From assembly GCA_008632985.1 (NCBI GenBank), contig QPGO01000236.1:62001-103230 (forward strand): a stretch of 41,230 bases of DNA, read 5' to 3'. A program made the translations under genes and the position numbers. The stretch's first letter is position 1; every line of letters begins with the position of its first letter. Shown here one piece after another: positions 3,551 through 39,422 of the stretch. The notes beneath the pieces were generated by a model. The model was not told where the DNA came from. It ran no database searches and was given only the letters and a program-made list of their open reading frames with translations. The stretch is from Psammoneis japonica. Taxonomy: Eukaryota.

Positions 3551-4295
3551 CATCAGAGTGCACGAAATGTCAAAAATGTGCAGATTTGCACAATGATGAT
3601 TTGTCGAAATGTTGCAAAAAATTGTTGTCACACAATGACAGGCCAACCTCTGGTCACAAGTTTGCCACACCAGCGTTGCAACAACTTGTTGAGAATTGTG
3701 CACGCCATTTTTCACTGTGCCCACATCACTGCATCTGCCTCATCAGAGGCCGCAATGTGGTGTTGTTCACTTTCCTTTGGAAAATTTGGAACATTTATTT
3801 TGACAATTGTGTGCAAAAATTAGTGACAGTTCATTTGTTTTTTGACAGTCAATTTGCATTTGTTGTTGCCATTTTATGTTGGCAATTGTCGCCGTTTTGT
3901 TTTGCTTTTAAGTTGCCAAAGAATTTCAATGAGCCCTTCATTGTTGAGTGATGCTTTTTGTTTTGATTAATTTTTCACATGTTTGTGGAATCGTCAACTT
4001 TGACAGTGCTTTTCAACAGCTTCACCGCAGCCTTGCATCACCACAGACAATGGCATTTCTCCCTCGCCCCAGTCGGCCATGCAGTTGCCCAGAGGAACAC
4101 TGTCTCATTGTTTCCACCTGCACGCTCCAGTTGTCCAGTCAATGGGCCCCTGCCTGCATTTTGGTGCCTTTTCTACATGCGCAGTTCTCTGCCCATTTCA
4201 CAACAGCACACCCTCTCCCCAAAATGCTTTTGATGAGAGGGTGCACTGTTGTGAATCCTGTGCATTCTACGTGAATCGGCAACTGACTGTTGGCC

Positions 4296-9279: not shown

Positions 9280-9374
9280 GTAGATTGTCAAAGCAGGTGA
9301 GTGAACGTTGTCTCTGTTGTCCTTGTCGTCCCAATTAAGTTTTCTGCTGCTGTTGTCGGATGCTCACATGCTTT

Positions 9375-12300: not shown

Positions 12301-12758
12301 AAGTCCAGGGACATGTCATGAATTTCCTCATGATGGGATCGCGACCCAAGAGCGGAAATGTCATCATCAAACGGTGGTGACCATGGTTCATCGCTTCTGT
12401 CATTTTCGTTGTCAGTGGACCCAAGCCCAATGTTCGCTGCGGACGCACCTTGTCTGGACCGCCTCAGCCATGGCTGTGACGCGTCATCTGATGAGGAGGA
12501 AATGTCGAGATCAACTGACCCACATCTGCGAGAGAATTTGTTGCTGGCGTTGGAAGATTTAGCCACAACCCTTGCTGACAACTCTGGCATTGGGCAGTTT
12601 GTGACTGCATCGCGACGTGACAAGTTGGGCATCTCTTGAGCAAACAAAAAACACAGTGGGTCATGATGGAAATGGGTGAGCATCCGTTTGAAGGATCGTT
12701 TGCAACGGGGACATGCCACCACACCACCCCCACCCTGCCAACCACCATTTCCTTCCAT
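9375..12758 (-). pseudogene. Plavaka-like transposase of element A (hypermutated, frameshifted C-terminus)
   Basis: 899-aa ORF 10059-12758. N-terminal CPRC..H..C zinc finger, then IHVDKTG, VLGCIPD, RDCHKVL, GDAKSGD, DMMHLFENG and KLHELLH. Downstream pieces CRAHPDCNSEGPVHDW and LVPIDAVGDKLLVHEE. Only one Tyr in 899 aa. Confidence 0.8.
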
Positions 12759-13055
12759 TTGTCATTGCAGCAGGTTTGTGGGCTGCCCAAACACATGTGT
12801 GTTTGAATGGCAGCACCAGCTCAGTTCTTGAAAAGTGAAACAGTTTGGGCGGCAAGGAAGGAAAACATGACATGAATTGGCGCGAAAACATGGGTGCATT
12901 GTGTTCTTCCCATCAATGAAAACATTGACAGGTGAGAATGAATCGAACGCGTTGCGATGATTGATGACTTTGAGCATGAACAACTGACTGCAAATGTTGT
13001 TTTTCTGCGGAAAGGAAAAAATGAGTTGTGACGTGATGAGCCGTGATGCGTTGCA

Positions 13056-14533
13056 GTGAGAAGTCCAGGAGGGGCGCACCCACACCCACTGCAGCACCAG
13101 ACACAAACGTTGCAATCAACAATGAACGCTGTTGTGCAAAATGACCGCTTGACGGCACATTGGCCAAATGACCACTGGAGGAGATTTGAAAGTTTGACAA
13201 TCATGACGGCAGATGGAAGGCGACAAATCATGGAATCGGAGCAGAAGGCGGCTTTTGATGAATTGGGTTGTTTGATGCAAAGTTCACCACAAGGCAGGAT
13301 GGTGCATTCTGATGACACGGGTGTGGCTTTGATCGAGTTTGAGAGCGGTGCACATGCGGTTGACCCGTGCCTGCGCCGTGACGCAATGGACCTGCAACGC
13401 ATGATGAATGAGGACAACATCGAAGGGAGGTGGCGGGAACTGTGGAAAGAGAGGTGCAACCACATGGTTTGGCTGCACGAACATGTGAGTGATTGGAGCA
13501 CAGAAGTGATTGAGCACATGCACGCCAGCACAGGCAGGATCTGAATTCATGACAACCTGAACTGGTTGAATGGCGTCGTCAACCGTGGGATCAATGCTCG
13601 CCATTGCCCGGAGCATTGGGGCTGCATCGCGACTCACCAAGACAGGCAAGGAAGGATGTGCTGTGTCTGCAGCACTCTGCACAATGAAGGAGAGAAAGAG
13701 CTGAGGGATGAATTTGCAGTGGGTGCGTGTGATGATGCAAAACCAGTCATTGACAGGGGAGACGTTTGAGATTGAGACGGAATTCGAGCGTCAGCATGCC
13801 GACCTGTGGCATGGACGAGACAGGCACTTGTGGACCGTTGGGAGAAACATCGGCAAGGGGAGGCACACACGGACTTGCAATGGACAAGAAGGGAATTGTT
13901 TGCGATGCATTAAAACTGGCGAAGTGGTTCCAGCGTGACATCGTGCGAGACAACCATGAAAGACTTTGGTTCTGTGAGCAAATGGAGTTCTTCAGGTTGT
14001 CTCCACGGACAGTCAATGAATGGATGCTGGACATCATCTGGAAGGAGGATGGTGAGCGGGAGAAATTTCAAAGCAGGAGAAAGGAAAAGCGTTGGGTGGA
14101 GAGACGTTGTCGCATTGAAGTTGACGAATTCGTGAGAATGGTCGGAGCGGAGACGAGGGCTTTCACCCACATGACTGACTGTTCCGACATCGGGCGACAC
14201 ATCAAGTTGAGAGTTACAAAGTTAGAGGGTGATGATGAGTTGGGCCAGAGAAAACGATTTGGCACCAAAAAGGATGGATGTGCTCAGGCCCCAACAGCAA
14301 ACCGGAACAACGTCAAAGCAGGTGAGGGGTTTGTTCATTGCAGTAAAAACAACTTTCACAGGTGCACGTTTCACAATGATGTTTTGAACAAAATGCTTTT
14401 GCAAGCAATTTGCACTGTGGAAGTGGATTTCGAAATTGCAGCAAAAGAGAGGTTTGAACTGGAATTCGCAATGATTCAAAATTTTCACAAGATTGCACGG
14501 AGTGGTGAAATGGATGAATTGTGTGCACATTAA
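13056..14533 (+). pseudogene. Extra uncharacterised gene specific to element A
   Basis: Same-strand ORF run 13056-13544, 13566-13769 and 13766-14533 with protein-like composition, broken by stops and a frameshift. No counterpart in B or C. Confidence 0.5.
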
Positions 14534-14686
14534 AAGATTTGGTTGATTCTCAATTGTGTTGCATTTGAGAAAAAGGAATCATTGATGGTGACTGTGAGAT
14601 TTTTGGTGTTAAAGAGAGGTTTGAAAATTTTCCAACGGCGAAAACAACTGGGACACAAGGCATGGAGCCACCCACAATTGGCGACA

Positions 14687-15910
14687 ATGGCAAGGAAGAA
14701 GAAGAAAGGAACTGCAGGGGTGGCTGGAGATCAACCAACAAGCCCAAGGCCAGCCACAGTGTTGGTGCGGGTGGGAGCCACTGGGGATCACCAGCCCACA
14801 AAGAGAGAGGTAGAAGAGGTGGCGCGGAAGGAACTTTTCCCAAAGGCAAAATTCCTTGTCAAGGCGGACATGGCAAGCAGCGGCAAAGTGTCGCAGCTCA
14901 TCAGGAAAAAGACAGCTGGAGGAAATTGCAGCAAGCAAGACTGGGCAGGAGCGTGGGAAGACTGGGCAAAGAAGTGCGTCATGCGTGCAATTAACGCGAA
15001 AAGGAGCACGGTCACTCAGGCGATCAAGAACAATGCAATGGCTGGCAAGTGTTTTGTGGTGCACGGCATGTTGAGTGCAGTTGCACTTGACACAACTGCA
15101 CCTTTGTTTGTTGAAGTCATGTTGACAGAGAATGAAGCAGAGGAGACACGCAGTCAGAAGCTGGCAGCAAAGGGTGGAGGTGGGAAGAAGATCAAGAAGA
15201 GGAAGAAGAACGATCGTACGGAAGAGGAAGAGCCGTTCCTGGCAACTTGGGGGGAGGAGACTGTGACAACGATTGTGGAGGACAAGCGCAAGAACAAGAA
15301 AGCATGTGCTTGGTTCTACGAAAACATCCTGAAATTCACAAAGAGCACCACCACATGGAGAAGGAAGGTGGAGTCGGGTGAGACAAAGGCAACCGGTCTG
15401 GCTGCAGCGAGCAACGAGGCTCCAGCGCTGTTGACATTGGAAAACTGCTGGAAGAGTTGGGAGCACAAGGCACGTCATGACAAGACTGTTGCAGCAGGGG
15501 GGGGTTCGGACGAAGAAGATGAGGAGGAGTCGGAACCAACACCCAAGCACACGGACCCGTCAAGGCAATGAGACTCGTGGAAAGATGCAGGGATCAAGCG
15601 ATTCAACAAACTGCTTGCGGCAGCAAAGAAAGACAGGTTGAGTGAGGAGGGCATGCAGTTCGACACATGGCACAGCGAAGGCAAGAAAAGGAAGAGTGAC
15701 GAAAGAGGCAAGGGATCAAAAAGAAAGAAAAAGCAGGTGGAGGAGGCAAGAACACAGGCAACGATGGAGCTTTCAAGTGACGACAAGGAGAAGGAGGAAG
15801 AGGCAACGGACGAGAACAGAGGAGATGAGGACAGTGACGAAGGGGAGGAGGACAGCGATGCGGAAAGCGATGCGAGTGTAGATGCAGATGGTGAGCGAGC
15901 TGCGGCATGA
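14687..15910 (+). pseudogene. Accessory gene of element A (basic/acidic protein, function unknown, one probable intron)
   Basis: ARKELFPKAKFL...SNEAPALLTLENCW...SWKDAGIKRFNKL. Homologous to the accessory genes of B and C. Probable intron starts at mutated donor GCAAGT, 15045. Confidence 0.7.
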
Positions 15911-16482
15911 AAAGGCAGCGGAGGCTTTTGTCAGTGTGACAATGGAAAGAGGACAAGCAATGTAGCAGGCTTCAATGCCAACAGTTGCAAGCTTTGATGG
16001 GGCATCAAAGGGATCATTGTTTTGTGATCTAACCTTTCGTTTGACAACCAGTGCATGCAACAGAACCAGTGTGTGCAATGGAAGGTTCTCTTGACCAATG
16101 CAACGCAATGATTGGCATTGAATTGTCACTGACCAAAACGTTGTGAACATTGCTTTCAAAAGGTAAAAAGTGACGGAATTCTGATGGTTGAGGGAGGGGT
16201 CCCATGGGCAAAGGAGGGGTCCCATGGTGAAAAATGCAATGCTGTGACACACAACAAAAAATCACGTTCTACACAACTCACTCAATGTGAAACTGTTGCA
16301 CTCATGCCTGTGACAGTGTTGAAAATTGCCTGCAAGAAGGGTGGTCAGGATCACTGTGTTTCACGCTCTGATGCTTCACCTTGTTGCCATGTGCCAATGC
16401 ATGATTGCATTGCCACACAATCCTTGGTTTGTTGATTTTTTCAAACATCATTTTAAACAAGAAAAGCATTTCATCGGTCAAG

Positions 16483-18600: not shown

Positions 18601-21600
18601 GTGGCTGTCATTGCGCTTCAATGGAGACAATGTCCTGCATTTTGATGGCAAATGAAGAGCACAACATCCACTGCAAATGCCAGATAAAAAATCAAAATGC
18701 AGACACGTCACACCCATGAGAATCATCCAAATCTGGAAGACAATGTAATGTTTGCCAATTTCCCGCCATTTTTGCCTGTTGTTCTTCCTTTCCCTTCTCA
18801 TCCACAAGACAAGGACGACAAGCATGAGTCTTGATGAAGGCCCTGTCAATGTTGTCTGATTGACAATGGATGGAAACCCTCTTCTCTGTCCTGGGTGTGG
18901 CAAAAGTTTTTTGTGAATGGCCTGCCATTGGAGATGCTCGCCAATGTGTCACTCAGTTGCCCAAGAGTTGCAAACCCAAGATCAAATCCCAGATCAAAGC
19001 GACATTCCTGCCACAATGGAGGGGCTGCCCAAAGAAAGCGTGGTTCTTCCTCTTCGTCCTCTGATGATGATGAATCCCATCCGAGGCGACATGCTCGCAG
19101 CAGATTCCCAAGATCTTCAACGAGTGATCTGAGCAGCAGCCCCTTGTTCCCCTCCCGGATGATGCACCGCACAGAATGGACGACATGTCCTCTGTTTCAT
19201 CAAACCACAGCATGCATGGAGTTGAGCTTTCAGCAATGAACGATTTGGATGTTGGCGGTGGTCAATCCTTTGCTGCAGTGTTGGACATGACAATGGAGGA
19301 GGAAGAGGACATTCACGATGAGGATCAACGTTTGGGGATCAGGCATCACGCTCCTGCAGAAGAGGCCTTGGCTTCCACTCCCTCTTTGACAAATCTTGAC
19401 GGAGCTTGCGCAGAGTTGTGCAAGAAGCTCATGGACACATGTGGTGCTCCCCTGGAATTGTGCGATTGCATTGTTGATTTCATTGAGAGGCACACTGGGA
19501 ACAGCGACATTGAGCTTGGTGCAGTTCTGCCAAGGAGAAAAGAGTTGATGCGCACCTCAACTGAGCACTTCCCTCTTCCACCCAGCGAGTCCATTCCTGT
19601 CACTCTAGAAACCAAAAATTTCAAAACCGGTTTGCCAAAACGAGTGTCAGTGCCAAGATGGGATTTCACAAAGGTTTGGGAACAGTTTTTGCTCAATCCT
19701 CACCTGTGGCGCAGCAGAGAGAATGTGGCTGATCCAGACAATCCTTTTTTGGAAGCACAAAGTGAAGGGACCGGGCGACAAGTGCCTTTTGGCGGGTGAG
19801 TGGCACAGGCACAGTCGCGAAGAATGGACAACTGACCCGGAGAAACAATTTCTCGAGTGCAATGTCATTTGCCTCGACAAGACTGGCAGGACACAAGGGA
19901 TGGGATCACATTGTGGAGAACCAGTGATCATGACCTCTGCGCATGTTGCCTTCAACAAATGGTCTGACAAGAGTGTCTGGAAACCAATTGGTTGTCTCCC
20001 TGATTTGGAAAAGATGTCATCATCTGCGGCAAGGAATCTCTCAAACAATTGCAAGGCGGAGAAGGGACGCTCGTCAAGAGACTGCCACACTTGCTTGCGT
20101 GTTGTTTTGGAGCCACTTTTGGAAGTCATGAGAAAAGGAGGCATGAAAACATGCGTGCGATGAGGGGATGAGATGCGACACCTCCGCGCAATCCCGCTGA
20201 TTGTTCTGATCACAGGAGATGCAAAAAGCGGCAACTGCGGAGGTCACAACTGTCGCCAATGTTGCTGTCGTTTTTGCCCCATTGGCTTCAACAAACTGGA
20301 CGACCCATGGATTGAATGCGAGTTCATCCGAGGACTGGATCTCCAACAAGTGCAAACTGAGGCCAACAACGACAACAGATCAGACCAAGAAAGGAAGCAC
20401 TGGCTGGGCATCTTGCATCACCTCAAGCAACACAACGCACCTGCCAACTGTCTTTTTGAGGCAGACTTTGGTGCACAACCACATGGCATTGCCCTTGCAA
20501 CAGCAAGCAACATGATGCATCTCTTTGAAAACGGCACCTTGAAAAGGGCAATCAATTCATTTGTGGACAGCATGACACCTGTGGTCGCAAGTGAGGTGGA
20601 CAGCACAGTGGAAAGGATTTTCAGCAATCACCGGTCAACTTGCAAAGCATCCTTTTTGCGAACAAACTTCAAAGGAGGAGCAACGTCACTTGCCTTCCTC
20701 AACTCTCACCACTGGGCTGGAATGGCTTTTGTTTTCCACCTTCTCCTGTCAACCAGCGAGGGACGAAATGCATGTGAGTCATGCTTCCTTGACGAGGACG
20801 CAGACGAACCCATTGTTCCAGAGAATCGCAAGACACCCAAAGCAAACTTTGAGAGTTGCTGCCAACATGGTGAGTGCTTGGACTCTGACGATGAAAGGTC
20901 GGAGGAGTCCGAAGAGGGTGGCTGGGACGAAAATGAGGATGAGAAAGAGGAGAGTGAGGCAGAGGATGGTGACGACAACCAAAAAAAGAAAAAATGCAAG
21001 GGAAAAAGACTCAGCTGCAGCGCCCGGCAATTCATTCAATTGCTTGAGGATCTTCTTGTCTTCCATGCATGGTGCAGGCTGGGCGATCCACCCATCACAA
21101 GCGCAACTCCCAGTTCATCCATTCAGAAAACAAACACGAAAATCCGTCTCCTCATTGACTGGATGTTGCAATTCATCGCGCGAACAGAAGGATGCAGGTG
21201 GAAGCTTCAAAAGCTTCATGAAACACTCCATCTCTTGGTGTTTCTTTGTCATTGCCAACACGCAATGAACTTTGATGCAGGCTTGGGGGAACGCCTCTTG
21301 AAAGACTTTTTCAAGCTGCCATTGTCTGCCACACAACAATGCAACCTTGATGGTTTTCTGAAGCAGGTCGTGTCGCGTGTGGAGGAGGACAGTGCATTTT
21401 GCCAACTGGGAAAAAGGAAACATCAAGAGTCTGGATGGACAATCACACGCTGGGAGGAAGTGCGTTCACTCTCACCTGCAGCTGAGGGATTGGTGCTGTG
21501 ACGTTTGAGTGGACAGCTTGCGCGCTCGTTGCCAAGTTCATCCTGTGTCACTGAACTTCATGTCAGAAAAGTGGGAGGATTGTGTTGGTGAAGACAATGA

Positions 21601-21732
21601 AAACACACGTCTGACTTGCAAGACAGAGTTTTGCCATGCAAGTGGGAGGGATGCGCACCGTGCGCACCCCAGTTGCAAAAGCGAAGGCCCATGGCATGAC
21701 TGTGCCTGTGTGACCTTTGGCACACGAAAGGG

Positions 21733-22178
21733 TGCAGCATGCATGCAGACAAAAGGTCATTTTGTCACGCCCTTTGTGACATTTAAAGGCTGCAACACGT
21801 CGCCGTGATGCATTGGCTCTTGTTGGCAGCTGTGTGTTGCACTCCTCCCCATGTGTCACGCGTCCATGCGGCTCTTTGCTGACGTGTGCTGACACTGCAC
21901 GGTTTTGGCAGAACAGTGTGGGTGCGTGCGAAGGAACACACAGAACTGCACAGAGTTTTGCGCGTTCGACAGTGATCAACGTTGCTGCAGACAACTCCCA
22001 CTCAGGTTTCGAACCCCTGGCCTCCTGCCCAATGGTTGCGAGATGAACCACTCCACCATGAATTCACAACGCAGCATGCATGCAGACAAAAGGTTATTTT
22101 GTCACGCCCTTTGTGACATTTAAAGGCTGCAACACGTCGCCGTGATACATTGACTCTCATTGGCAGCTGCACATTGCA
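21733..22178 (-). mobile_element. TRIM-like miniature LTR retroelement (109-bp LTRs)
   Basis: Direct repeats 21733-21841 and 22070-22178 with TG...CA-type ends and AGGG duplicated on both flanks. Purine tract GGGGAGGAG (21850-21842) abuts the 3' LTR. Excision restores GTRKGDQQFP in frame. Confidence 0.85.
21995..22065 (-). promoter_or_regulatory. tRNA-like Pol III promoter (A box and B box) inside the TRIM
   Basis: TGGTGGAGTGG (22058-22048) and GGTTCGAAACC (22015-22005) at tRNA-like spacing. No clean cloverleaf. Confidence 0.6.
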
Positions 22179-22558
22179 AGGGCGATCAACAGTTTCCCTC
22201 CCGTTTGCTGTGTTTCTTCGAACAGGAAGACACAGGATCAATTTTTGCAGCGGCCCATCCAGCTGCTTGTCAAGCTGACCAGAGAACTGTGGGGCAACGG
22301 CATCAGCACACAAACTTGGTCAGTCGCTGGCAGCTTGATCACAAACAAAACAACTGGCTTTCAATGCCTGAGAAGACTCAGCACTCGCCTGAGTTGCGGG
22401 TTGTCCCCATCAAAGCAATTGGGGACAATGTTTTGGTTCACGAAGAATGTCCAGGAGCAGCAGAAGCGCAAGAAAAGGCCCCATTTGTTTGGGCTGCACA
22501 GGACAGAAGGAAGTGTTGGTCAGATTTGTTTCTAAAATGGGGTGCGCGCATCAATCTG

Positions 22559-25500
22559 TCATTCACTCACAGTGATTTCCCAACTCTTTCTTGCAAACAT
22601 GATGAGTTTGATCCTTTCAGAATTGGCAAAGTCATTGTGGTGCACGTGAAGCAGTGCGGCGTGAGCACCTTCCATTGCTTTTGTTCTGATGTCTTCTTCT
22701 GAAACTCCAAGATGAGCTTCTTCCTGATCGGAAGGCTTTCCCAACCACCGTTCTCGTTGTTCTTGGGTTGTAAGGTTGCTTGCAAAGAACACACTCGCAC
22801 GGCTCTTTGCAGCATCATTGTCCATTGTGCATGTGTCGAACACAGCCGATGATTTCTTCCATTGTTTGACAACCTGGAAGAAGGTTGTGAGAGCAAAGGG
22901 AATCACTGTGTCCCCCCCTTCTCCGTTTTTGGAGAGCAAGGCCCAAAGATCAATTAGATTCTGGAAAAATTGAGTCGTCCCAAAACGAGAATTGTGCCAC
23001 TCTCCATCTGGCATCCAGCAGCAGCCCAACATGATTTGGTCGAACCCATGATCATCAAAATCAACAATTTTCTCAAACTGCTGCTTGACTCTCTTGACGA
23101 AATCTCTTGCTTTCACATTGCAATTTAAGTGCAGATCAGGATGGCCATCTTAGAGAGAAACTGTTGGAACGACGTTTGTGGTTGTTTTGTTGGTTTCCTC
23201 AAATGCCATTGTGTGTGCCTTGTCTTGCCTGTGTTGGTCGGACGACCCTGAGGCCACCCCCTTCTCAGAGCACAATTCTTGAGAAGATGGATGCCTTGCA
23301 TTGAGCAGACGGGTCATCCCCAACCACAGCACATTGTGTGTTTCCCCATTGGTTTCGTCACTTGCGAAACAATCTCCCAAGTCACCATGGTCCTCTTCAC
23401 CCTCGGAGCATTGTGCAACTTGGTTGTGCTCATCATCAATGGGCTCTTTGCTTTTGTCCTCTTCACCCATGCAAGCAGTTGGAAGTTTGCTTGTGTTCTC
23501 GTCAATTGACCCCTCCTCGCAATCGCCAATTTTGTTCATTGCAAATGACAACAAATCACCGGCGGCCTTCTTCCTGTTAGAATGAGAATTCAATGTGACA
23601 ATGTCAGTGAAATCAGACAAAAAACAAATGTGGTTGCCATGAAAAAATGACCTCTCTTTGCCGTTCCAGTTCGGCTCGAACTTCATCAATTGACACGAAT
23701 GGGACTGGCTCCCATCCATGCCTTCCAAACCACTTGATCGTTGATTGCCCATCAGAGAACAAGAGCAACAGATGCTGTCCGCAACAAAAGACATCGCAGA
23801 TTCCCATCTTTTATGAGCTGCACTCAGGTCACACAGCAAAGACGCTGGACCATTCTTTCCACAGTCTTCCAAATCAAAATCACCCACTGTCCGTTCCAAG
23901 AGTGAATCGCGCTCCTCCACCGGGACCTTCATTTCCTCCATTTGCTTTGCCGCTCCCAACTTGGCTGCCGGATGGACAAGATTGCGAAGGTCAGGGTGAG
24001 CATGGATCCCCGTGCCACACAGCATCAACATCTGTGCAGAGTTCATGCATCTGAACTCTCCATGGTCAGCGCCTGTGTGATCCCATGTTTGGACCACGGT
24101 TTTAAACACATCCTCGAACGCCTTGTGGTCAAACGTTGGCTTGCCAACATTGTCCTTGATCCAGTCCATGACAACAACCAGTCCGCCAACAAGCAAGTCC
24201 ATCAAACCATTGAGTTTCATCCCGCACTCTGCCACACGAACCTCCTCGAAATCGAGTCCCGGGCTCTGCATGCGTCGGTTGTTGCGATCCCCCGCAATGC
24301 TGCCGAGTGGCCTTGCAGCTTCTCTGAAGCAATGAAGGACACGATCTCCAGCCATGAAAGGGCACTTCGCAGCATCTGTGTTGCACAACAAGCAGTGAAA
24401 ATGGGAGAATCCGGTTTGACACCCAGCCACAATGGCGCAACAAAAGCAATCGCACACACCAACCTCGTCGATGTTGTCGATGATTGCCGAACAACCGCAC
24501 GAGAAATTAAAGTCCTTCACGATGGCAAACGTAAGACGTTTCCTTGGCATGACAATGACGGGATGCTCAACTGTGTTGGACGGAAGATTTGGCTTGTCAA
24601 TTTCCTCTTCCACCCACACAGAGTGAGGGTCAAGGAAAAAATCTTTGATGTTTCTGTGGGTTGGCTTGCCCGACGGAGGATGACAAGGGCCATGGCATCT
24701 CATCATTTCTGCAGCATGTGACAGATCAAGTTTTGCGAAATGACCATGCACACGCAATCGGAACTTGGCATGCCCATGTGCCGAGCTGACATGGTTTCCA
24801 GCATTGCCTTTGGATGCAGTGATGACCTTCAACGACCAAGAGCGACCAACAGCATCTCGCAGTGATGAGCAAAGAGCACCAGTCTTGGTGCACCCATCCA
24901 TGTCACAATCTTCTTTGTCAATGTGAAGCTCAGTGTTTGAATCAACGGATTTTTTGCCGGACGATGAGATGCACTTCAGACGCGTTCCAGATGTGGGTGG
25001 AAATCCGTGTGACATTGGGCCCGTAGACTTCTACGTGCGAGCTCCACAGCAAAATCATGCGGCAATTAAAATGTCAATGATCGCCAACAGAAAATGAGGC
25101 AATTTTGCGAACGCACAAACTCGCCCATGATTGAAGTGCATCATTTTTTACTTGGCCAGTTGCATTCTTCAGACATTGAAGAATGCAACTGGCGCATTGT
25201 TGTTTCTGCAAACTTGTCACACAAAACGTCTGGGGCTTCGCAAAACAGTGAGTCTGGACAATTTTTTTTAAACATCACACATGGAAAGCTACGTGCGAAA
25301 CATGCGACGGATGACAAAAATCATTTGTGTCACACGTCAGTGCTGCGAGCTCCCACCTGGGGCTGGAACGCGTCTTCACTTGAATTTCCACGCCTTCTCT
25401 TCTAAAATGCTTGGCTCCAACCATCTCATGGAGCTCAGCTGCGAAAAGACCATCACGGTGCGGGTCATGGAAGGAACGCATTTCTTTCAAAGCAACAAGA

Positions 25501-27498
25501 TTGATTTTGTCCTCGCAGAGTTGCGCGGCGTCCAAGATTGAGGCTGTCATCAGCTGCACATCCTTTGGAAGCTTCTCCCACTTGTCCCTGCCAAAGATGG
25601 CACCAGGCTTGTGAGTGGGTCCCACTTCAGCTAACTCACCGTCTGCGACTTCGCAATTCTGGCCACAACAACCAAAACAGATCCGACAATGCAACTTGCA
25701 TTCTGGTCCATCCCTTTTTTCGTTTGGCTTGCCATGTTCCAACACTGCACAGAGTGTCAACGACACACTGAGCTGCAATCCAAAAAAGTGTTTCTGATGC
25801 ATCTTGTCCGTGTGTCGCAAATGAGTGACCACGTTGGAAAAATGAGAGGTTGGCTGGGTCGGGCAAGCAATTGCAACCATCAATTCTTGCGTCGGATTGT
25901 TGGGAGCCAAGCCGTTTTCAAATCCATGCACAAACTTGCGGAGTTGATTCACCAAGCAGAAATCGGAGATGCTGTGGAACAACTGGTGCTTGACACAGCT
26001 CCCCTCAAAGGAACCGGCAATGGGGGTTTCCTCAAAGACGACAAGGTGAGAATGTTGTGACTTCACCTCACCCGGAATTGCAAACGGAGATGGTTCAGGA
26101 AACACTTTCACAAGCTCTTCTTTTGTGAAATTGTCTGGCGGAGGAGGAGGTGACTGATGAGTCATGCCGAGGGTCGGCCACTTTGTTCGGGAATGTTCAA
26201 ATTGTTCCTCGAGAGTCGGCACATCTTGGAGAATCAGCGATTTGTTCTGAGAAACATCAGAAGGTTCATCATCTTTGGGGTTTTTGAGACTGGGGCTTGA
26301 GGAGCAAAGGGAGGCAGCTGAAGAGGTGGCAAGAAGAACAGAAGAATTGGAGACAAGAAGAGGAGGACAAACAACCAATCAAACAATGTGATGGATTCAC
26401 ACCATTTGGATTTTTTTGTTTCCGAGCATTTTTCGTAACAGATGGAACTGCATTGCAGATTTCTTTCTTCTTGCACTGAGTGGCAAAGTCATGAAGCCTG
26501 GCTTTCCACACAGCCTCAAAACGATCCCTTGTGGCCTTGCTTTTGCCGGAATCGTCAGCGGCAGAAACCACACGATCAATTTTCACACATCTTAAAAGAG
26601 TCTCATCGACATGTGTTGCGCGCATTTGTTCTCGCTCGACATCAAGCATCGCTGGTCGCATGGGCTTTGCCCAAGAATTTTTGTGTTGGTGGAACAATGA
26701 CTTCACGAATTCAGGGAAGGACATGGGGCGTTCGTCTTTGGTCGTCTCACAGAGACCAAGAGCCAGGAAATTCTCCAAAAAGTTGATGCAAGTCGATGTC
26801 TCATCACATTCGCCGAACAGGGAGCAAAGCCAATGATCGTCATCACCATTCCTTTCAGGTGCATGCGGTGGAATCTTGTCACAAAGAATCAAAAAACCAA
26901 TGTGAAGGCATTGCGCGCAATGCAAAACCTTCCCTTCAAAACTTCTCAGCTCAGTGTGCTTGACAAGTGGCTCTGCCTTTGGGTTGCACAATCCGGGATC
27001 ATGGAGAAGCTTGCACAACATGGAAATCTTTGCCATCATGTTGGTTGTGATGTCTGTTGATTTTGCCTTGTCGCCGACGACTTTCACATCCTCCACTTTG
27101 GGAGCACGGCGATGCTCCAACGCATGAGGATGTTTGGCGCCTTGACTGGAATGACTCCATCCTTTTGTGGAAAGAAAGTGCAGCAAGCTCTTGCACCCAA
27201 GTTCCTTTGCAACAATGCGGTTCACAGCCATTGGCTCTACAAAAAAATGAGGTCTGCCCTTTGACTTTTGCCACATGTGGGCAAGCGCGATCCAATTTGG
27301 AGAGGGATCACAAGTGGAATCGCAGTGGAACTGAACCTTGGATTTCACCGTCTCGATTGTCGCTTTGACGCGGCTCCGCTCGTTGCTGTCAATCACTCCA
27401 AAACCATTGGCAAAGAGAGATTCAAATGCGGCCTCCTCGAGGTGGGAACCGTTGTTGTCTTGCGACAGAGAGGCAACCGATGGGTCATGTGGCGCCAT
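22559..27498 (-). pseudogene. Large multidomain cargo gene of element B, split by a MITE
   Basis: ORFs 26269-27720 (from MAPHDP), 25275-26378, 23150-25015 and 22559-23116. Removing the MITE plus one TTCA joins EIQVK to CISSSGKK in frame. Paralogous to 4296-9279. Confidence 0.78.
24979..25374 (+). mobile_element. 396-bp MITE, copy 1
   Basis: 12-bp TIR GACGCGTTCCAG / CTGGAACGCGTC with TTCA duplicated on both sides. Interrupts a reading frame. Confidence 0.92.
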
Positions 27499-27735
27499 GG
27501 TTGCTGTTCCAACACCAAAAAATCTGGTTTCTGCAGAAATGTGCCAGAGTGGTGCATGGGAGAAGTCACATGTGCGCCTGGTGGGATTTGGAGTTTTAAA
27601 CACAAAAACCCACCAGACGTGCGTGCAACTTCTCAAGGGGAAATCCTGCGTGAGATCACACCGGGAAAGGGCAATGCGAAGTGCAGAATTGATGAAAGAA
27701 AACACTGTGCATGACAGCATCAGGAGAAAGGGTGT

Positions 27736-31837: not shown

Positions 31838-32437
31838 TTGGCTCTGATCACTCTCTCGCATGACATTGTGCACATTTCCACATGATTTTGTGTTTTGCCT
31901 TGTGCTGCAAAACACCAATTGTGACCCATGCGGCATTTTCGAATGACTCCCATTGAGCCCTTGGAACAAGGCAGAGCTGCCGCTGGCGCGGGCACCAAAC
32001 TCTTGATTCCCACCCATTTCGGTGCTTTCACGCTGCCTGTGTTTGTTGTTGGTTTCTTCTGCAGCTCACAGTCAGCACGTTTGTGTGTGGCAGACACTTT
32101 CTAGACTGTCGCAAATCATCTTATCTGTGTTGTGAACAAATTGTGCATCGAGTCGCCATCACAAGGGAAAGCTGCATCAGAGTGCACGACATCGTAATGT
32201 CTGCACACATGATGAAAACACATTGCTGTGTTGTAAAATCTGCTTGTCTGCACATGATGGTTTTTGTCATTTGGTTGATTGTCAATTTCCTGCTGTTCTT
32301 CATGTTTGAACACAGGTGCTTTTTAATTTTTGTGCTCAGCCTTTTTCACAACAACTGACGATCTTTAACGACAAGCCAAACATTGCAATTGCATGCAATG
32401 AAATTTTCATCATGTGAAGTGTGCGCTGATTGTTTGA

Positions 32438-32833
32438 GATGCGTTCCAGCCCTGGGTGGGAGCTCGCAGTGCTGACGTGTGACAACAACAATTTTTGTCA
32501 TCCGTCGCATGTTTCGCACGTAGATTTCTGCGTGTGACATTAAAAAAAAAATGTCCAGACTCGCTGTTTTGCGAAGCCCCAGATGTTTCATGTGACAAAT
32601 TTGTGGAAACAACAATGCGCCAGTTGCATTCTTCAATGTCTGAAGAATGTAGCTGGCCAAGTAAAAAATGATGTGCTTCAATCATGTGCGAGTTTGTGCG
32701 TTCGCAAAATTGCCTCATTTTCTGTTGGCAATCATTGACATTTTAATTGCTGCACAATTTCACTGTGGAGCTCACACGCAGAAGTCTGCGGGCCCAATGT
32801 CACACGGATTCCCACCTGCGTCTGGAATGCGTC
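32438..32833 (-). mobile_element. 396-bp MITE, copy 2
   Basis: Same TIR with one mismatch at each end and TTGA duplicated. The empty site is in element B at ~28290-28320. Confidence 0.92.
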
Positions 32834-33670
32834 TTGATCAACAACTGTGCTCCAATTGGCCTGTTCATCCACATCATCCTCTTCATTCCAGGTGTCTTGT
32901 CTGCTCTCTTGCAAGAATTTCAAATGTGCCGCTGCCGCGTTGGATGTTTCCTCATCACCATTCCAAAAAAGCCACACTGCATTTCTTGCATTTGGGCGAA
33001 CATCATCGAGAGGAAGAGGTCCCTCAAAAAGCAGAATCGTGTCGCTGCTCCCCTCTTGACATCGTGTCATCTGCTTCTTTTTCTCTTTCTTCATTTTTCC
33101 CATCCTGTTTTTCTCTTCCTTCTTCGTCTTGGTGCCGCCTGTTTTCACCGTCTCCGGCATCTTTCCATCCGAATCCTTCTTTTTCATCGATCCCGTCGCC
33201 ATTGCCTTCATCGTGTGTCACTTTGTTTTGGTTCCATGTTTCTGACTTCTCTCTGTGCTGTCCCCATTTCCGAATGTTTCTTTGTGATTGTTCGCATGCG
33301 TCACTTGAAGGCACCCATGTGTTCTTCATGTGCCTCAACGTGCATGTAGAAATCCATGTTGTTTTCCAGCACACACACCCTTTCTCCTGATGCTGTCATG
33401 CACAGTGTTTTCTTTCATCAACTCTGCACTCCGCATTGCCCTTTCCCGGTGTGATCTCACGTGGGATTTCTCTGGGAGAAGTCACACATCGCATCTGGCA
33501 GGTTTTTGTGTGCAAAACTCCAAATCCTGCCAGGCACGCATGTGACTTCTCCAACGCACCACTCTGGCACATTTCCACAGAAACCAGAATTTTGTGACTG
33601 ACGCATGACCAATCTGGTGAATGCAATGGTGGACCCATGACCACAACAATCAGAGCATCAGAAGAAAACC

Positions 33671-34660
33671 ATGTCAGATGAACTCTGTCTGTCTGCTGCT
33701 GAGGATTTCCATCGCCGGATGATGGAGACAGTTGATGGTTTTGTTCACACTGACGCTGCTCATTGTTCGGAGGAACAGAGAGCAAAGGATGCAAAGGCTG
33801 CGTTGTCAAGATCGGCAGCAGCAACAGCAGAAGCCCATTGTGCCGTTGTGGCTGCAATGACCGCACTTGACAGTGCTTTGTTAAATCAAGCAACAACCAC
33901 TTGCGAATTCAAGCACATCCATGCGCAGTTCATTGAGTCATTGATCAAGACACACTGTTCAGACAACGACTGTGTTGTTGCAGTGGAAAATTGCAGCAAA
34001 GCGGAAATGAGTTTCCAACGCTTTCTTCACGGCAACGCATTTGACGCAAAAGAATTGGGGCTCCCAATCTCCGTTGCGGGACATCAAAAATCAGAATGTG
34101 GGCTAAACATGCTGCGCAGCTGTGACTCGACGTTGCTTCTGAGAAGCCTCAGGGCAAATTCTGACACAGATGCCAACAGAGTGGCAGAGAGGGAGTTTTC
34201 TGCGATTGACAGCATTGACAAATCCATCCACTGCCGTGCCGTGCCACTCCTTCGATGGCGACATCTGACACAGCCGCAGCGCGTCCTGAAGGACACAATC
34301 ACATTGCTCCACGAGGCCCTCGACGATTTGAGAAGGAAAGACGTTGCCTTGCAGCGACAGTGGCAAGCTTTGTGTGATCTGAGGCCAGGCACAGATCAAA
34401 TGCGGGGAGGGACATGGACCGCGATCCGGGCTGTGGACGAAGAAGCCGTGGCAAGAGAAAGGGTCCTGCAGTTGGCATTGCAAATCGAGGCACAATTTGT
34501 GGCTGTCAACCAGCCTGACCACAGCGCCAACTTTCAGCAGGCAATTGTGGCTGCCAGGGAACATTTCATGGCGCAGGATGACCAAATGGACCGTGCAAGT
34601 GGACACTGCACAGAATCTGTGAGGAAGCAATTGCTCCAAAAATGCACACACTGTGAGTGA
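33671..34660 (+). CDS. 329-aa predicted helical protein occupying the cargo slot of element C
   Basis: Uninterrupted ORF rich in Ala/Leu/Glu/Gln/Arg with no Tyr. Lies between the same flanks that bracket the 5-kb cargo gene in B. Confidence 0.6.
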   Translation: MSDELCLSAAEDFHRRMMETVDGFVHTDAAHCSEEQRAKDAKAALSRSAAATAEAHCAVVAAMTALDSALLNQATTTCEFKHIHAQFIESLIKTHCSDNDCVVAVENCSKAEMSFQRFLHGNAFDAKELGLPISVAGHQKSECGLNMLRSCDSTLLLRSLRANSDTDANRVAEREFSAIDSIDKSIHCRAVPLLRWRHLTQPQRVLKDTITLLHEALDDLRRKDVALQRQWQALCDLRPGTDQMRGGTWTAIRAVDEEAVARERVLQLALQIEAQFVAVNQPDHSANFQQAIVAAREHFMAQDDQMDRASGHCTESVRKQLLQKCTHCE

Positions 34661-35175
34661 ATGACAGATTGATGCACGCATCCTGTTTTAGAAACAAATC
34701 TGACCAACACTTCCTTCTGTCCTGTGCAGCCCAAACAAGTGGGGCCTTTTCTTGTGCTTCTGCTGCTCCTGGACATTCTTCGCAAACCAAAACATTGTCC
34801 CCAATTGCTTCGATGGGGACAACACGCAACTCAGGTGAGTGCTGAGTCTTCTCAGGCATTGAAAGCCAGTTGTTTCGTTTGTGATCAAGCTGCCAGAGAC
34901 CAACCAAGTCTGCATGCTGATGAAGATCTTGGGAATCTGCTGCAAGTTGATCGCCTCGGATGGGACTCATCATCATCAAAGGACGAGGAGGAAGAACCAC
35001 CGCTTTCTTTGGGTGGCCCCTCTGTTGTGGCAGGAATGTTGCTTTGATCTGGGGTTGGATCTTGGGTTTGCAACTCTTGGGCAACTGAGCAACACGTCGG
35101 CGAGCATCTCCAATGGCAGGCCACTCGCAAAAAACTTTGGCCACAACCGGGACAGAGAAGAGGGTTTCCGTCCAT
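34655..35175 (-). pseudogene. Internally deleted transposase of element C
   Basis: The 5' part (matches 18866-19118) is fused at ~34920 to the 3' part (matches 22300-22570). About 3.2 kb of B, including the catalytic core, is missing. Confidence 0.85.
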
Positions 35176-35430
35176 TGCAAATCAGACAACATTGACAGGG
35201 CCTTCATCAAGACTCACACTCGTCGTCCTTGTCTTGTGGGTGAGAAGGGAAAAAAAGAACAACACAAAAAAAATGGCAGGAAAGTGGCAAACATCACATT
35301 GTCTTCCAGATTGGGACGATTCTTGTGGGTGTGACGCACCTGCATTTTGATTTTTTGTCTGGCATCCACAATGAATGTTGTGCTTTTCACTTGCTGTCAA
35401 AATGCAGGATGTCATCTCCATTGAAACGCA

Positions 35431-35952
35431 GACGCGTTCCAGACGTGGGTGGGAATCCGTGTGACATTGGGCCCGCAGACTTCTGCGTGCGAGCTCCGCA
35501 GTAAAATCACGCGGCAACCAAAATGTCAGGCCAATTGGAGCACAGTTGTTGATCAAGACGCGTTCCAGATGCAGGTGGGAATCCGTGTGACATTGGGCCC
35601 GCAGACTTCTACGTGCGAGCTCCGCAGCAAAATTGTGCAGCAATTAAAATGTCAATGATTGCCAACAGAAAATGAGGCAATTTTGCGAACGCACAAACTC
35701 GCACATGATTGAAGTGCATCATTTTTTACTTGGCCAGTTACATTCTTCAGACATTGAAGAATGTAACTGGCGCATTGTAGTTTCTATAAATTTGTCACAT
35801 AAAACGTCTGGGGCTTCGCAAAACAGCGAGTCTGGACAATTTTTTTTAAATGTCACACGTAGAAATCTACGTACGAAACATACGACGGATGATAAAAATC
35901 ATTGTTGTCACACGTCAGTGCTGCGAGCTCCCACCTGGGGCTGGAACGCGTC
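35431..35952 (+). mobile_element. MITE copy 3 (98-bp partial copy + 28-bp foreign flank + full 396-bp copy 35557-35952)
   Basis: TIR at 35431, 35557 and 35941-35952, with CGCA duplicated outside. The empty site is in element B at ~18605-18625. Confidence 0.9.
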
Positions 35953-36208
35953 CGCAATGACAGCCATGTCAAAAAGCAAGTTGGACTGTTTGTTGTTGTG
36001 CACAAATGTGTTTTCAAATTTCAGTGTTGCTGACAACAACCCATGCAATGTTGCAGAGAAAAACAGAGTGCCTGGCTGTCTCAACATGACCCAAACGACG
36101 GTTGCACTGTCGAACAGTGCCGCTCCTCTCATTGTTGCCGTGAAAAGATCAAGATGTCATCTCCAGCACAACTGGCAAAGAAGAGAAAAAAATGAGACTG
36201 TTGAGCCA

Positions 36209-37434
36209 ATGAGCCCGAGACTTCAGGCAGTGTTGAAGAGAACAGGTGCGCAGGCAGCGCATGGTGCATTGAAATCAGAAGCAGAGAAGGTGGCCAGAAA
36301 TGATCTCTTTCCACAGGTGAAGTTTCTCAGTCCATCAGAGTTGGCAAGCAATGGGAGCGTCTCAATGTTTGTCAAGAAACAGATTGCTGGCGGCAACATG
36401 GACACTTCAAATTGGTCAGGAACTTGTGAGGAATGGGCAAAAAAGGTGGCAAAAAGGCAAATTGACAATCGCAGAAACAAGGTGTGCTCGGCTGTTGGGG
36501 CGGAGGCAATGGCCCGCAAGTTGAGTGACCAATGTGTGTGATTCGAGAGTTGCGCATGTCTCACAAGAAGATGACAGTGATGCTTTGTCTGCACAGACGT
36601 TGTCACTGAGGAAGAGGGAAAGGAAAAAGAAAAGAATCTCAAGGCGGCAGACAGGAGGAAAAAGAGGAAAAAGTCAAGCCGTGACAAGAATGAAGAGAAT
36701 GATGTCCCGTTTGTGCCAACATGGATCCGTTTGGCCCAGACACTGTCACCGGCGGCAAACAAAGGAACAAGCAGGCACGCAAGTGGTTCTGTGATCACAT
36801 CCTGCCTCAAACCAAGCAAAAGCAGGCATGGAGTGGCGCCGTCAAAACTGGGAACACACAGGTCTCACAGTTGTTTGCGGTCGGTGACAAAGCTTTGGCG
36901 CTGTCAGCTGTGGAGAGTTGTTGGCAGGTGTGGGCATGCAGGAACAAGGAGGAGGCGGTGGAAGAATTGGGTGAGGAAATGGAGCCCGAAGAAACAAGGC
37001 CTGCCCCTCGGCACACAAAGCCAAACAAACAATGAGTGTCTTGGGGAGATGACGGAATCAATCGGTTCAACGATTTGTGCAAAGAGGTGACGAAAGACAG
37101 AGACTCCAAGGAGGGCAAGGAGTTTGAAAAGTGGCACGCGGAGATCAAGAAAAGCGAGTGCGAGAAGTCCAGGGAAGCAAAAAAGAAGAAAAAGAAAGCA
37201 CCGACCGGTGATGCGGATGAGGTGAAGGCAATGAACAGCCCAATGGTGGAGAGCAGCAGGGGCAACAATGGCAACGACGATGAGCAGGAGGAAGGCGCAA
37301 AAGGCAAAACGGACGATGGAGGAGACGAGTCCGATGATGATCGTCAGCTTAGTTTGAGAGAGTTGCAGCAAGAAAATGTGCACACAGTTGACATGGCACT
37401 CGGTCATTGCACTGCAGATGCAACAAGGGATTGA
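36209..37434 (+). pseudogene. Accessory gene of element C
   Basis: Reverse-complement copy of 16483-17710 (ORF pieces in 35672-36541, 36721-37035, 37036-37434). Confidence 0.72.
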
Positions 37435-39422
37435 CTCAACCGATGAATGGCTTTTCTTGTTTGTGACAATGTTTGCAAAAATTGACAAACCAAGGATTGT
37501 GTGGAAATGCAACCATGCATTGGCACATGGCAACAAGGTGGAGGCAGATGTGGTGATGTGGATGCAGTGAAAAACAGCATGCATGATTCTCAACAAGTTG
37601 TTGCAACATTGGCGTGGCAAACTTGCAACCAGAGGTTGGCCTTTCATTGTGTGACAACAATGTTTTGCAACATTTTGACAAATCATCATCATGCAAATCT
37701 GCACATTTTTAACATTTCGTGCACTCTGATGTGTGTGATGTTCGCCGCTGCTCGGAAGACAAGATGGCGCGTCAATCGATGATGACAACACCTTCTTGTC
37801 ATTGTTTGAAAGCACTCAAACCAACCATTGACAGCTTCGTGTTGGGCGCGAGCGACGGTTTTCATGTGTTGGTCGGCATTCCGCAGGCCGGTTGGTGCCA
37901 CACAATGCTGGTGTCTGTTGCTGTGTGCCCCATCAGCTGGGTGATGCTCTCCATGTTGAAGTTCACAATTGGTTGCCTCTTGAGCTGCACTCAAATCAGG
38001 CAAACCAGCTGGGCAGGGGCCATTCACCCACCCACCATCACAGAGGAACACGGCACCACAATCAGTTCAAAATTCATGTGCGCTGCCTGCAAAAATGCGC
38101 GCGTCAACTGCCCCTTGTTTGTGCAACTGCATTGATCACACAATGTCCATTTTTCTGTCTGTGATGGGATTGTGGCGAGTCAAATGTCAGCACATTGATT
38201 TTCAAAAAGAAGCTGGAGTTGTGGCGCGCACCAAGTTTAAATTCACAGTTGGCTCTGTCCCAACCCACGCCCATTGTCTCAACGCATCTTCATGCATGCC
38301 ATCACAGATTCCAGCCATTGTTGTTTCAGGATCATGCAGTTTGAGAAAACAAGGGGTGTGCAACAAATGAGTGGGCAGAAACCCATGTGGCACATTGCCA
38401 TCATCTTCAAGAAGGCCTCACAACTCGCACACCACGTCTCGCGGAGAGCAGAAGTGAGGTGCAAACCTGTGGTTCCAAATCCGTTCCGACCCCATTGGCC
38501 TCTGGACAATGCCCTGCGCAAGACAATCCACTGTGGCTTTGGGCAGTTGGGCGGTCATGGCGGGCGATGCATGCTTGTCTGAATCGTGTGTTTGATGTTT
38601 GTCATGCTGTGACGGTGCACTGCTGCTGCTGCTGTCATTGTCGTGCATGCCACGCAGAAGTTTTTGGTGCAGCAGGTTGGGTTCTCATCAAGTTGAGAGT
38701 GTGGTCAAATTTTGTTTCGGGGATGCCACCTGCAGGCCATTTTCTAAGATTCCCTTTGGGCGCGGTTCGGGAACGATTTGGGAACGCTTTTGGAGCGTTC
38801 CGGGAGCAGCGGAAATGCGGGAATGACGAAATGCCCATTTCGTCGAATGGCATTTCCATGATGGAGCCATTGGCGGTTGTCACAGTTCTTGTTTGGTGCC
38901 AAGCAATGCCAGCAGTTACAGTGCATCCTGACAGCTCAACTTGTGGCCACTGCAACTCAAAATCATTGAGACTGCCAACAGCCATTTTTTTCTTAGAAAA
39001 AACAGAAACCTGTTTTGACGGGTGCACCTTTTGGCAACAAAGCCATCAAATCAATTTGACTTTTGCAATTGCGCGTGTCACATGGACAGTTGGAAAAATG
39101 GTGCACTTCACAATGATGCACTGTCCATTTCATCAGCTGATTGACAGGCTCCAAAGATGGCTCTGCACGTGAATTGGTGTGGTTGAGAACGTTCTCGGTG
39201 CATTCTCGGAACGCTTTCGGAATGCTTTTGGCACAACATGCAAGGGAATCTTGAAGCCCAACACTTCACAACAGTCCCCCCCGAGAGGCCTTTTTTGATT
39301 TGGGGGTTGGAGCAACTTGGCGGGATTTGAATTTGAAACCAACTGTCCCACAAAAAGAGGGTGTCAAGATGGTTGTGAATTGTTCCGGGATCGCGATGCG
39401 AACCTCCAAGTCGTGTTGTGCT

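What the first reader, a model, noticed from the sequence alone, without database searches (positions are those of the whole stretch)
33592..34660. Precise cargo swap: an unrelated 329-aa ORF replaces the 5-kb gene in element C
Seen: C matches B on both sides (32175-33592 with 28564-27517; 34655 onward with 22570 downward). Between them B has the 5-kb cargo gene and C has a different intact ORF in the same orientation behind the same upstream region. Homology stops about 20 bp before the B start codon and resumes right at the C stop codon. Inference: a modular cargo slot allowing gene exchange under a fixed promoter.
Basis: partly seen in the sequence, partly recalled or inferred. Interest (0 to 1): 0.7.

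Follow-up and report, generated by a model that had tools for sequence, protein, structure and literature searches.

The report
Transposon offshoot with swapped orphan gene
An apparently many-copy, non-autonomous offshoot of a cut-and-paste (Plavaka-type) transposon has had its large accessory gene replaced, almost exactly from start to stop codon, by an unrelated protein-coding gene with no detectable relatives; gene capture by transposons is well known, and a reusable cargo slot is not shown.

Summary
Element C (32175-37731; 15-bp TIR starting CATCA, 2-bp TSD) matches B on both sides of a 1,055-bp segment (33594-34648) that replaces 4,943 bp of B. That segment holds a genuine coding frame: codon bias is like the neighbouring genes, it is predicted all-helical, and no homologue was found. 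Corrections: (1) the right flank is the antisense 3' end of the element's own Plavaka transposase, most of which C also lost (3,181-bp deletion). (2) C's last three codons and stop are borrowed, out of frame, from B's gene tail. (3) The '5-kb cargo' is a lineage-wide accessory gene: all 8 other elements examined at this position carry a large HxD-motif gene, and none resembles C's. Contig depth suggests C-type and B-type are about equally multi-copy. There are no TIRs, TSD or recombination sites at the junctions. This copy is TpA-hypermutated (0 Tyr), so its open frame does not show function. Best reading: one Pack-type replacement followed by amplification. The near codon-precise borders behind a retained hairpin remain unexplained. 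The scan noted Pack-type elements elsewhere in this genome before, but not this ORF.

The parts
32175..37731 (+). Element C: complete non-autonomous PlavakaB-type DNA transposon, 5,557 bp including two MITE-like insertions
   Evidence: TIRs and TG/TG 2-bp TSD; colinear with B
32175..32189 (+). Left TIR (15 bp, begins CATCA)
   Evidence: PlavakaB termini CATCA..TGATG per PMC12730594
37717..37731 (-). Right TIR (perfect 15-bp inverse of the left TIR), followed by the TG target duplication
32437..32834 (-). MITE-like 398-bp insertion in C's left arm, absent from B at this site
32835..33329 (-). Candidate small divergent gene shared by B and C (lysine-rich, then acidic); absent from A; no family hit; gene status not established
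   Evidence: no hit in fetched loci
33475..33552 (+). Imperfect hairpin/palindrome about 40 nt before the left junction; candidate (bidirectional) promoter element. Equivalent hairpins precede the accessory gene ATG in B (27560-27634) and, with a different sequence, in A (4197-4255)
   Evidence: DNA fold z about -6, -5, -9 against dinucleotide-block shuffles of a stretch chosen because it held the hairpin; promoter role inferred
33594..34648 (+). C-specific 1,055-bp segment replacing 4,943 bp of B; no own TIR, TSD or junction repeat beyond chance (5-6 bp)
33605..34660 (+). Orphan ORF: 329 aa from ATG 33671; probably began at ATG 33605 (in-frame TGA at 33638); predicted all-alpha with a helical hairpin at residues ~200-280; 0 Tyr (hypermutated)
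   Evidence: no homologue
34649..34664 (+). Retained last 4 codons and stop of B's accessory gene; supplies C's last 3 codons and stop in another frame
34683..34922 (-). 3' remnant (79 codons) of the element's own Plavaka transposase; its stop codon position reads CAG in C and TGG in B, consistent with an erased TAG
   Evidence: C-termini of homologues P0001-P0004
34921..34922 (.). Junction of a 3,181-bp internal deletion of the transposase (B 19120-22300), with about 2 bp of microhomology (CA)
34923..35200 (-). 5' remnant of the transposase (CxxC...HxxxxxxC start), out of frame with the 3' remnant
   Evidence: homologue N-termini
35430..35952 (+). Composite second MITE insertion (99-bp partial end, ~27-bp copy of the first insertion's flank, full copy)
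36209..37431 (+). Second element-encoded gene (TnpA-like position, label recalled), conserved in A, B and relatives
22559..27498 (-). B accessory gene (the '5-kb cargo'), broken into pieces; homologous to A's and to L005/L008; HxD motif; TET/JBP-like identity is a lead, not confirmed here
   Evidence: inconclusive
19176..22540 (+). B's Plavaka transposase (main part), convergent with the accessory gene
   Evidence: Pfam PF18759 E 7.7e-4, below the curated cut-off; 56% identity to A's
3741..16373 (+). Element A: divergent sister family with the same gene order (accessory gene 4296-9279 +, transposase to 12758 -, second gene 14585-15571 +), CT/CT TSD, nested in a B/C-type right end

Best explanation
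C is a non-autonomous, Pack-type derivative of the B family of PlavakaB (EnSpm/CMC-like) transposons. Shown: A and B share the layout TIR - hairpin - large accessory gene -> <- transposase - second gene -> TIR. In C the accessory coding sequence is replaced by an unrelated 1,055-bp coding fragment, and most of the transposase is deleted. Both TIRs and a TSD are intact, so C moved as a unit. Inferred: the replacement was one illegitimate event, most likely a template switch during repair or replication of a B copy that copied a gene (host or other TE) into the element. The derivative was then amplified in trans by B's transposase to a copy number similar to B's. Because the insert landed just behind the hairpin with its ATG 12 nt inside, it was probably transcribed from B's accessory-gene promoter, and this may have helped the lineage. 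Nothing shows a dedicated or repeatedly used slot. This copy was later inactivated, like its neighbours, by TpA->TG/CA hypermutation.
For: TIR/TSD match PlavakaB as described in PMC12730594. Transposase homologues at E 7e-159 to 4e-57, 2 of 8 with PF18759. The right flank translates antisense to the homologues' C-terminus. A second deletion with 2-bp microhomology lies 270 bp away. B-type polarity: A, L005 and L008 carry B-gene homologues at 24-42% identity. Summed contig depth in run X1: C ORF bin 5,662; six B-gene bins 4,091-6,621 (mean 5,338); three transposase bins mean 5,238; single listed contigs 35-123. The flanks sum to about 13,400 over their two places, nearer B+C (11,000) than B alone (5,300). 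B-versus-C differences outside TA/CG contexts are 1.8-5.7% in six segments and show no purifying selection in shared genes (13 nonsynonymous, 3 synonymous; pN/pS 1.17). So C branched from B late and without a long selected history. No junction repeats. Precedent: multicopy Pack-TIRs made by template switching plus transposition, with 2-bp microhomology (PMC8277862).
Against: The donor was not found, so capture and microhomology at the donor side are unshown. The borders are more precise than random capture predicts: crude chance about 8e-5 for both within 20 nt of B's start and stop (post hoc, uniform breakpoints assumed), and the ORF also fills the insert end to end. The tool warns that summed contig depth is no copy number. 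It comes from one sample (X1; X2 and X3 are the same sample, with 3 and 0 contigs laid), and no listed contig spans either junction (most of table 8 was not shown). The depth budget assumes each contig is counted at one place. The pN/pS rests on 16 differences.
Confidence: 0.6

Rival explanations
1. Reusable slot. Plavaka families share a cassette: hairpin promoter, accessory gene, transposase end. Genes are exchanged between sister families by recombination in the flanks and kept by selection. The C ORF is a functional accessory gene of another family.
For: Near codon-precise borders. The hairpin is retained at a similar distance from the ATG (about 53 nt in C, 62 in B). At this position relatives hold at least two sequence groups that align only around HxD (hhalign E 0.47). 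Accessory genes move between TE families in fungi (PMC12730594 section 4.1) and red algae (bioRxiv 2025.02.11.637652).
Against: One event only. All 8 other elements have a large HxD gene, which may be one diverged family (L010 vs the L001 group: E 0.0018, probability 15%). C's stop is borrowed from B's tail. No sign of selection between B and C. Transposase depth equals B-gene depth, leaving little room for autonomous C-type copies.
Confidence: 0.15
2. Tandem-excision hybrid (the Pack-CACTA route). Two B copies inserted close together lost complementary ends, and the genomic DNA between them, holding the ORF, was carried off between the outer TIRs.
For: Gives exactly left arm + foreign DNA + right arm. 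Described for Pack-CACTA (PMC6379663 abstract; PMC13317346 passage). Elements here cluster and nest.
Against: Would not by itself place borders at B's start and stop. No TSD relic at the junctions. Both arms differ from B by similar amounts, which is uninformative rather than supportive.
Confidence: 0.12
3. Reversed polarity: a C-like element was ancestral for this backbone and B acquired the large accessory gene.
For: B and C share an upstream small gene that A lacks.
Against: A, L005 and L008 have B-type genes in the same place. C keeps the last codons of B's gene and only stubs of the transposase.
Confidence: 0.05
4. The ORF segment is an independent mobile element that inserted and caused an adjacent deletion.
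For: The segment is repeated. Its ends can be read as TG...CA.
Against: No TIR beyond 5-6 matched bases and no TSD; no transposase or other family hit. TG and CA are 1.6-fold enriched here.
Confidence: 0.04
5. Assembly chimera.
For: The window has an N gap (18284-18375) with duplicated ends. No listed contig spans the junctions.
Against: The gap is 15 kb away, inside B. C has matching TIRs and TSD. The depth budget fits linkage. The ATG and hairpin fit the junction.
Confidence: 0.04

Closest known systems
PlavakaB transposons (CMCT clade) with accessory TET/JBP genes in fungi (Kojima 2025, PMC12730594; passages and section 4.1 read, supplements not read)
   Same: CATCA..TGATG termini, 2-bp TSD, Plavaka transposase, an accessory gene without its own TIR/TSD; the paper reports passive transfer of such genes between families and notes possible parallel capture at similar positions.
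   Different: Here the incoming gene is an unrelated all-helical orphan that displaces the HxD accessory gene, in a non-autonomous derivative, in a non-fungal-looking TpA-erased genome.
Giant Plavaka elements of red algae with accessory genes PAG1-3 (bioRxiv 10.1101/2025.02.11.637652; passages read, supplements closed)
   Same: Multi-gene Plavaka elements whose accessory genes move among TE families.
   Different: No one-for-one coding-sequence replacement appears in the passages read (Supplemental Table 6 was not visible and may bear on this); similarity of the C ORF to PAG1-3 was not tested.
Pack-TYPE / Pack-CACTA / multicopy Pack-TIR elements (PMC6379663 abstract; PMC8277862 abstract and one results section; PMC13317346 passages)
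   Same: A non-autonomous TIR element carrying foreign coding DNA, amplified by transposition; nearly whole genes can be captured (Ssk-FB4).
   Different: The donor is unidentified here. C keeps two of the parent's other genes and the putative promoter, and the capture sits almost exactly in place of the parent's own accessory coding sequence.
TpA hypermutation of integrated DNA in Bigelowiella natans (bioRxiv 10.64898/2026.01.13.699255; abstract read)
   Same: T/A->C/G transitions at TpA; explains the loss of Tyr and of TAA/TAG in this window.
   Different: Background process here, acting on transposons; not part of the swap.

Membership tests
PlavakaB (CMCT clade) | Termini 5'-CATCA..TGATG-3' | tested here: met
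   C 32175/37731, A 3741/16373, B left end 28564; definition
PlavakaB (CMCT clade) | 2- or 3-bp TSD | tested here: met
   C: TG/TG; A: CT/CT. B's two apparent ends do not match (AT vs GG), but an N gap lies between them
PlavakaB (CMCT clade) | Plavaka transposase | tested here: met
   A's transposase hits 8 proteins at E 7e-159 to 4e-57, 2 of 8 annotated PF18759; B piece PF18759 E 7.7e-4, below the cut-off; C keeps only stubs
PlavakaB (CMCT clade) | Placement in the PlavakaB clade of a transposase phylogeny | not tested
   No reference PlavakaA/B sequences were on hand
Pack-TYPE element | Non-autonomous, with parental TIRs and TSD | tested here: met
   3,181-bp transposase deletion; TIR and TSD intact
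Pack-TYPE element | Internal DNA foreign to the parent element and protein-coding | tested here: met
Pack-TYPE element | Captured DNA traced to a host gene | not testable with these tools
   No genome is held for this window; no donor in the window or in the protein collections
Pack-TYPE element | Multiple copies with distinct TSDs | tested here: inconclusive
   Depth suggests tens of copies or more, but no second copy was seen as sequence
Dedicated cassette slot (integron-like) | Recombination sites or repeats at both borders | tested here: not met
   Best direct repeat across the junctions 5 bp, best inverted repeat 6 matches with 1 mismatch
Dedicated cassette slot (integron-like) | Several different cargoes between the same flanks | tested here: inconclusive
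   Two states only (B, C) in this family; 6 of 17 distant relatives informative, all with large HxD genes; other copies in this genome could not be listed
TET/JBP 2OG-Fe(II) dioxygenase (for B's displaced gene) | HxD motif | tested here: met
   Present in A, B, L001, L003, L005, L006, L008, L010; absent in C (the pattern was written after seeing the motif)
TET/JBP 2OG-Fe(II) dioxygenase (for B's displaced gene) | Double-stranded beta-helix fold or profile match | tested here: inconclusive
   Model of the L005 homologue pLDDT 42.8, best Z 7.1 to a helical bundle only; no Pfam or PDB-sequence hit

The most novel reading that the evidence does not exclude
The orphan helical ORF was a working accessory gene that took over the promoter of the TET-like gene by a selected, coding-sequence-precise exchange, and it let a transposase-less family reach its parent's copy number, for example by countering silencing or the TpA mutator, or by aiding transposition. 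The hairpin-to-transposase interval would then be a real exchange slot of these Plavaka elements, holding a new protein family.
Probability: 0.12. Interest if true: 0.7.

Novelty: new member of a known kind. Interest (0 to 1): 0.38.

Why it matters
It is a clean, datable case of a DNA transposon exchanging its accessory gene, with parent (B), outgroup (A) and derivative (C) in one window. That makes it directly testable, once all copies are collected, whether such exchanges are selected for expression. If the ORF shows purifying selection across copies, it would be a new transposon accessory protein in a genome under strong repeat-directed mutation. If not, it is an ordinary Pack-type capture. 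Six literature searches listed no paper describing this element or a coding-sequence-precise accessory-gene swap in Plavaka elements; the library lacks most subscription papers and Repbase.

Tried and rejected
1) Intron/shared-exon idea: the right junction reads like a splice donor followed by a branch point and acceptor. I dropped it when the antisense frame proved to be the transposase C-terminus. 2) B 19120-22300 as a nested insertion: rejected; it is B's own transposase, in the same place as in A, with no TIRs. 3) Homologue searches for the C ORF, all blank: word-seeded search of 180-576-aa proteins, phmmer over 1.84 billion representatives (0 hits at E 0.001), ESM Atlas whole and residues 1-190, Pfam, PHROGs, PDB sequences (best E 2.6), viral contigs (3 pattern matches, 1 passing tblastn in a tiny search space, 0 loci returned; not counted as evidence), earlier scan notes by sequence. 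Eukaryotic proteins are thinly held and this copy is hypermutated; B's 621-aa piece also found nothing, so the blanks do not prove novelty. 4) Structure: single-sequence model pLDDT 42.7; Foldseek no match at E 0.001; VIA best Z 11.4, generic helical hairpins. 5) TET/JBP identity of B's gene: not confirmed. 6) Expression: no RNA holder listed. 7) No whole genome is held, so family copies could not be listed. 8) The transposase profile found nothing in viral contigs. 9) 11 of 17 loci lacked enough DNA beyond the transposase end and were left out of the slot count. 10) The first codon-bias run had one mis-framed training gene and crashed; it was redone.

Full report
Observation. Self-comparison of the window and base-level alignments confirm that C and B are inverted relative to each other and colinear on both sides of a non-homologous interval. 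The last shared base on the left is C 33593 / B 27518, 20 nt before B's ATG at 27498. That ATG is supported as the start by alignment with A's gene from residue 1. The first shared base on the right is C 34649 / B 22574. C holds 1,055 bp and B 4,943 bp between these points. C keeps the last four codons and the stop of B's gene, and C's ORF takes its last three codons and its TGA from that tail in another frame. Its own end is therefore either cut off or an erased TAA/TAG; Gln codons lie at positions 320 and 323.

Is the ORF real? The window has almost no TpA (O/E 0.07; 0.03 in the insert), so two of three stop codons are depleted and long frames come more easily. Even so, a stop-free frame of 329 codons or more arose in only 0.08-0.16% of 5,000 simulations per Markov order. 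A codon-usage score trained on 10 coding stretches of A and B gave C 0.058 bits/codon in this frame and negative values in the other five. The leave-one-out range was 0.044-0.101; 0 of 1,500 null sequences and 0 of 70 outside-element windows reached C's value. The first 50-codon block from the in-frame ATG at 33605 scores 0.122, so the gene probably began there, 12 nt inside the junction, and the TGA at 33638 is a later lesion (inference). One block (34355-34504) scores negative. The ORF has 0 Tyr in 329 codons against 2.8% in unmutated transposase homologues (P about 7e-5). This copy has been through the TpA mutator described for Bigelowiella (abstract read), which creates no stops, so 'intact' does not mean functional. 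The protein is predicted all-helical at low confidence (pLDDT 42.7) and has no detectable relative in any search, nor any similarity to B's gene or to the genes of related elements.

What the elements are. C runs from 32175 to 37731 with a perfect 15-bp TIR beginning CATCA and a TG/TG target duplication; A runs from 3741 to 16373 with CT/CT. PlavakaB families are defined by CATCA..TGATG termini and 2-3-bp TSDs (PMC12730594 passage). A's transposase finds 8 homologues at E 7e-159 to 4e-57, 2 of them annotated as PF18759. A and B share one layout along their length: accessory gene, convergent transposase, then a second gene. The shared right flank of the 'slot' translates on the opposite strand to the transposase C-terminus, matching the homologues' last residues. 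Its stop position reads CAG in C and TGG in B, as expected from an erased TAG. C lacks 3,181 bp of that transposase, with about 2 bp of microhomology at the join. C is therefore a non-autonomous derivative with two rearrangements 270 bp apart. A hairpin lies 40-60 nt upstream of the accessory ATG in B and C and, with a different sequence, in A. Its role as a promoter is an inference.

Is it a slot? The transposase profile retrieved 17 metagenome loci with far less TpA depletion (O/E 0.42-0.74). Six of the 17 have enough DNA beyond the transposase end, and all six have a large convergent gene. L005 and L008 are homologous to the A/B gene (24-42%). L001, L003 and L006 form a second group, and L010 is weakly related to that group (E 0.0018, probability 15%). 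The two groups align only around an HxD motif (E 0.47), which all 8 of these genes have and C's ORF lacks. Earlier scan notes on other pieces of this genome call such genes TET/JBP-like fusions. My tests of that were inconclusive. So the position normally holds a conserved type of accessory gene, B's state is ancestral, and C is the one exception seen. The insert has no TIR, TSD or border repeat beyond chance.

Copy number and age. One public DNA sample holds the region. Laid at 85% likeness, summed contig depth is 5,662 over the bin wholly inside the C ORF, 4,091-6,621 over six B-gene bins, and 5,057-5,476 over three transposase bins, while individually listed contigs have depth 35-123. The tool warns that this is no copy number. 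Read only as ratios, C-type and B-type are about equally repeated, on the order of tens of copies or more. The shared flanks sum to about 13,400 over their two places, closer to B plus C (11,000) than to B alone (5,300), which fits most inserts lying between these flanks if each contig is counted once. No listed contig spans a junction. B and C differ by 1.8-5.7% outside TA/CG contexts, and in three shared coding stretches these differences are 13 nonsynonymous and 3 synonymous (pN/pS 1.17). On these few sites there is no sign of a long selected C lineage.

How it most likely arose. Shown: replacement, deletion, intact ends, coding insert, retained hairpin. Inferred: a template switch during repair or replication of a B copy brought in a gene from the host or another element, and B's transposase then spread the derivative. 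This matches the route proposed for multicopy Pack-TIRs (PMC8277862 section read). The tandem-excision route of Pack-CACTA (abstract; review passage) would give the same anatomy and cannot be excluded without the donor. Against a purely random capture stands the precision: both borders fall within 20 nt of B's start and stop (crude, post hoc P about 8e-5) and the ORF fills the insert. That leaves room for selection on expression or for exchange with a sister family's cassette. Passive transfer of accessory genes between families, with possible constraint on position, is already reported in fungi and red algae (its supplements were closed and may bear on this).

Verdict. This is a new member of known kinds (PlavakaB derivative; Pack-type or accessory-gene exchange). 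The host being diatom-like comes from earlier scan notes and was not tested here. Interest 0.38; it would rise to about 0.7 if the copies show purifying selection on the orphan ORF or further cargoes share the borders.

Noticed in passing
window 1-41230: TpA is almost absent (O/E 0.07) and TG/CA are 1.6-fold enriched across the whole window; the genes have essentially no Tyr codons.
   Followed up: partly
window 3551-3740, 3741-16373, 16374-28564: Element A is nested in the right end of a B/C-type element (2-bp TSD). B's apparent ends give no matching TSD, and an N gap (18284-18375) with duplicated ends lies inside B, so B may be two copies joined by the assembly.
   Followed up: partly
window 24978-25375, 32437-32834, 35430-35952, 41137-41214: A ~400-bp high-copy MITE-like repeat inserted once in B (just before the HxD motif) and twice in C. 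The second C insertion carries ~27-29 bp of the first insertion's flank, suggesting a local hop that dragged flanking DNA.
   Followed up: no
window 21727-22178: A ~450-bp very high-depth insertion with 99-bp direct repeats interrupts B's transposase; run contigs skip it.
   Followed up: no
window 32835-33329 (-) and 27810-28305 (+): Possible small gene divergent from the hairpin in B and C, absent from A; no family hit.
   Followed up: partly
L010:9-6922: Looks like a complete ~6.9-kb CATCA..TGATG element with a 5'-truncated transposase, an HxD accessory gene and a divergent ankyrin-repeat gene (5586-6608) where B has its small gene.
   Followed up: no
L014:3-992: PIF1-like helicase fragment (Pfam E 1e-4, below the cut-off) next to a Plavaka element.
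   Followed up: no
window 36307-37588: Depth over the second gene (18,000-24,000) is about twice B plus C, suggesting further derivative families that share the right end.
   Followed up: no
window 13122-14533: A has extra ORFs between its transposase and second gene that B and C lack; no Pfam hit for the one tested (13796-14533).
   Followed up: no
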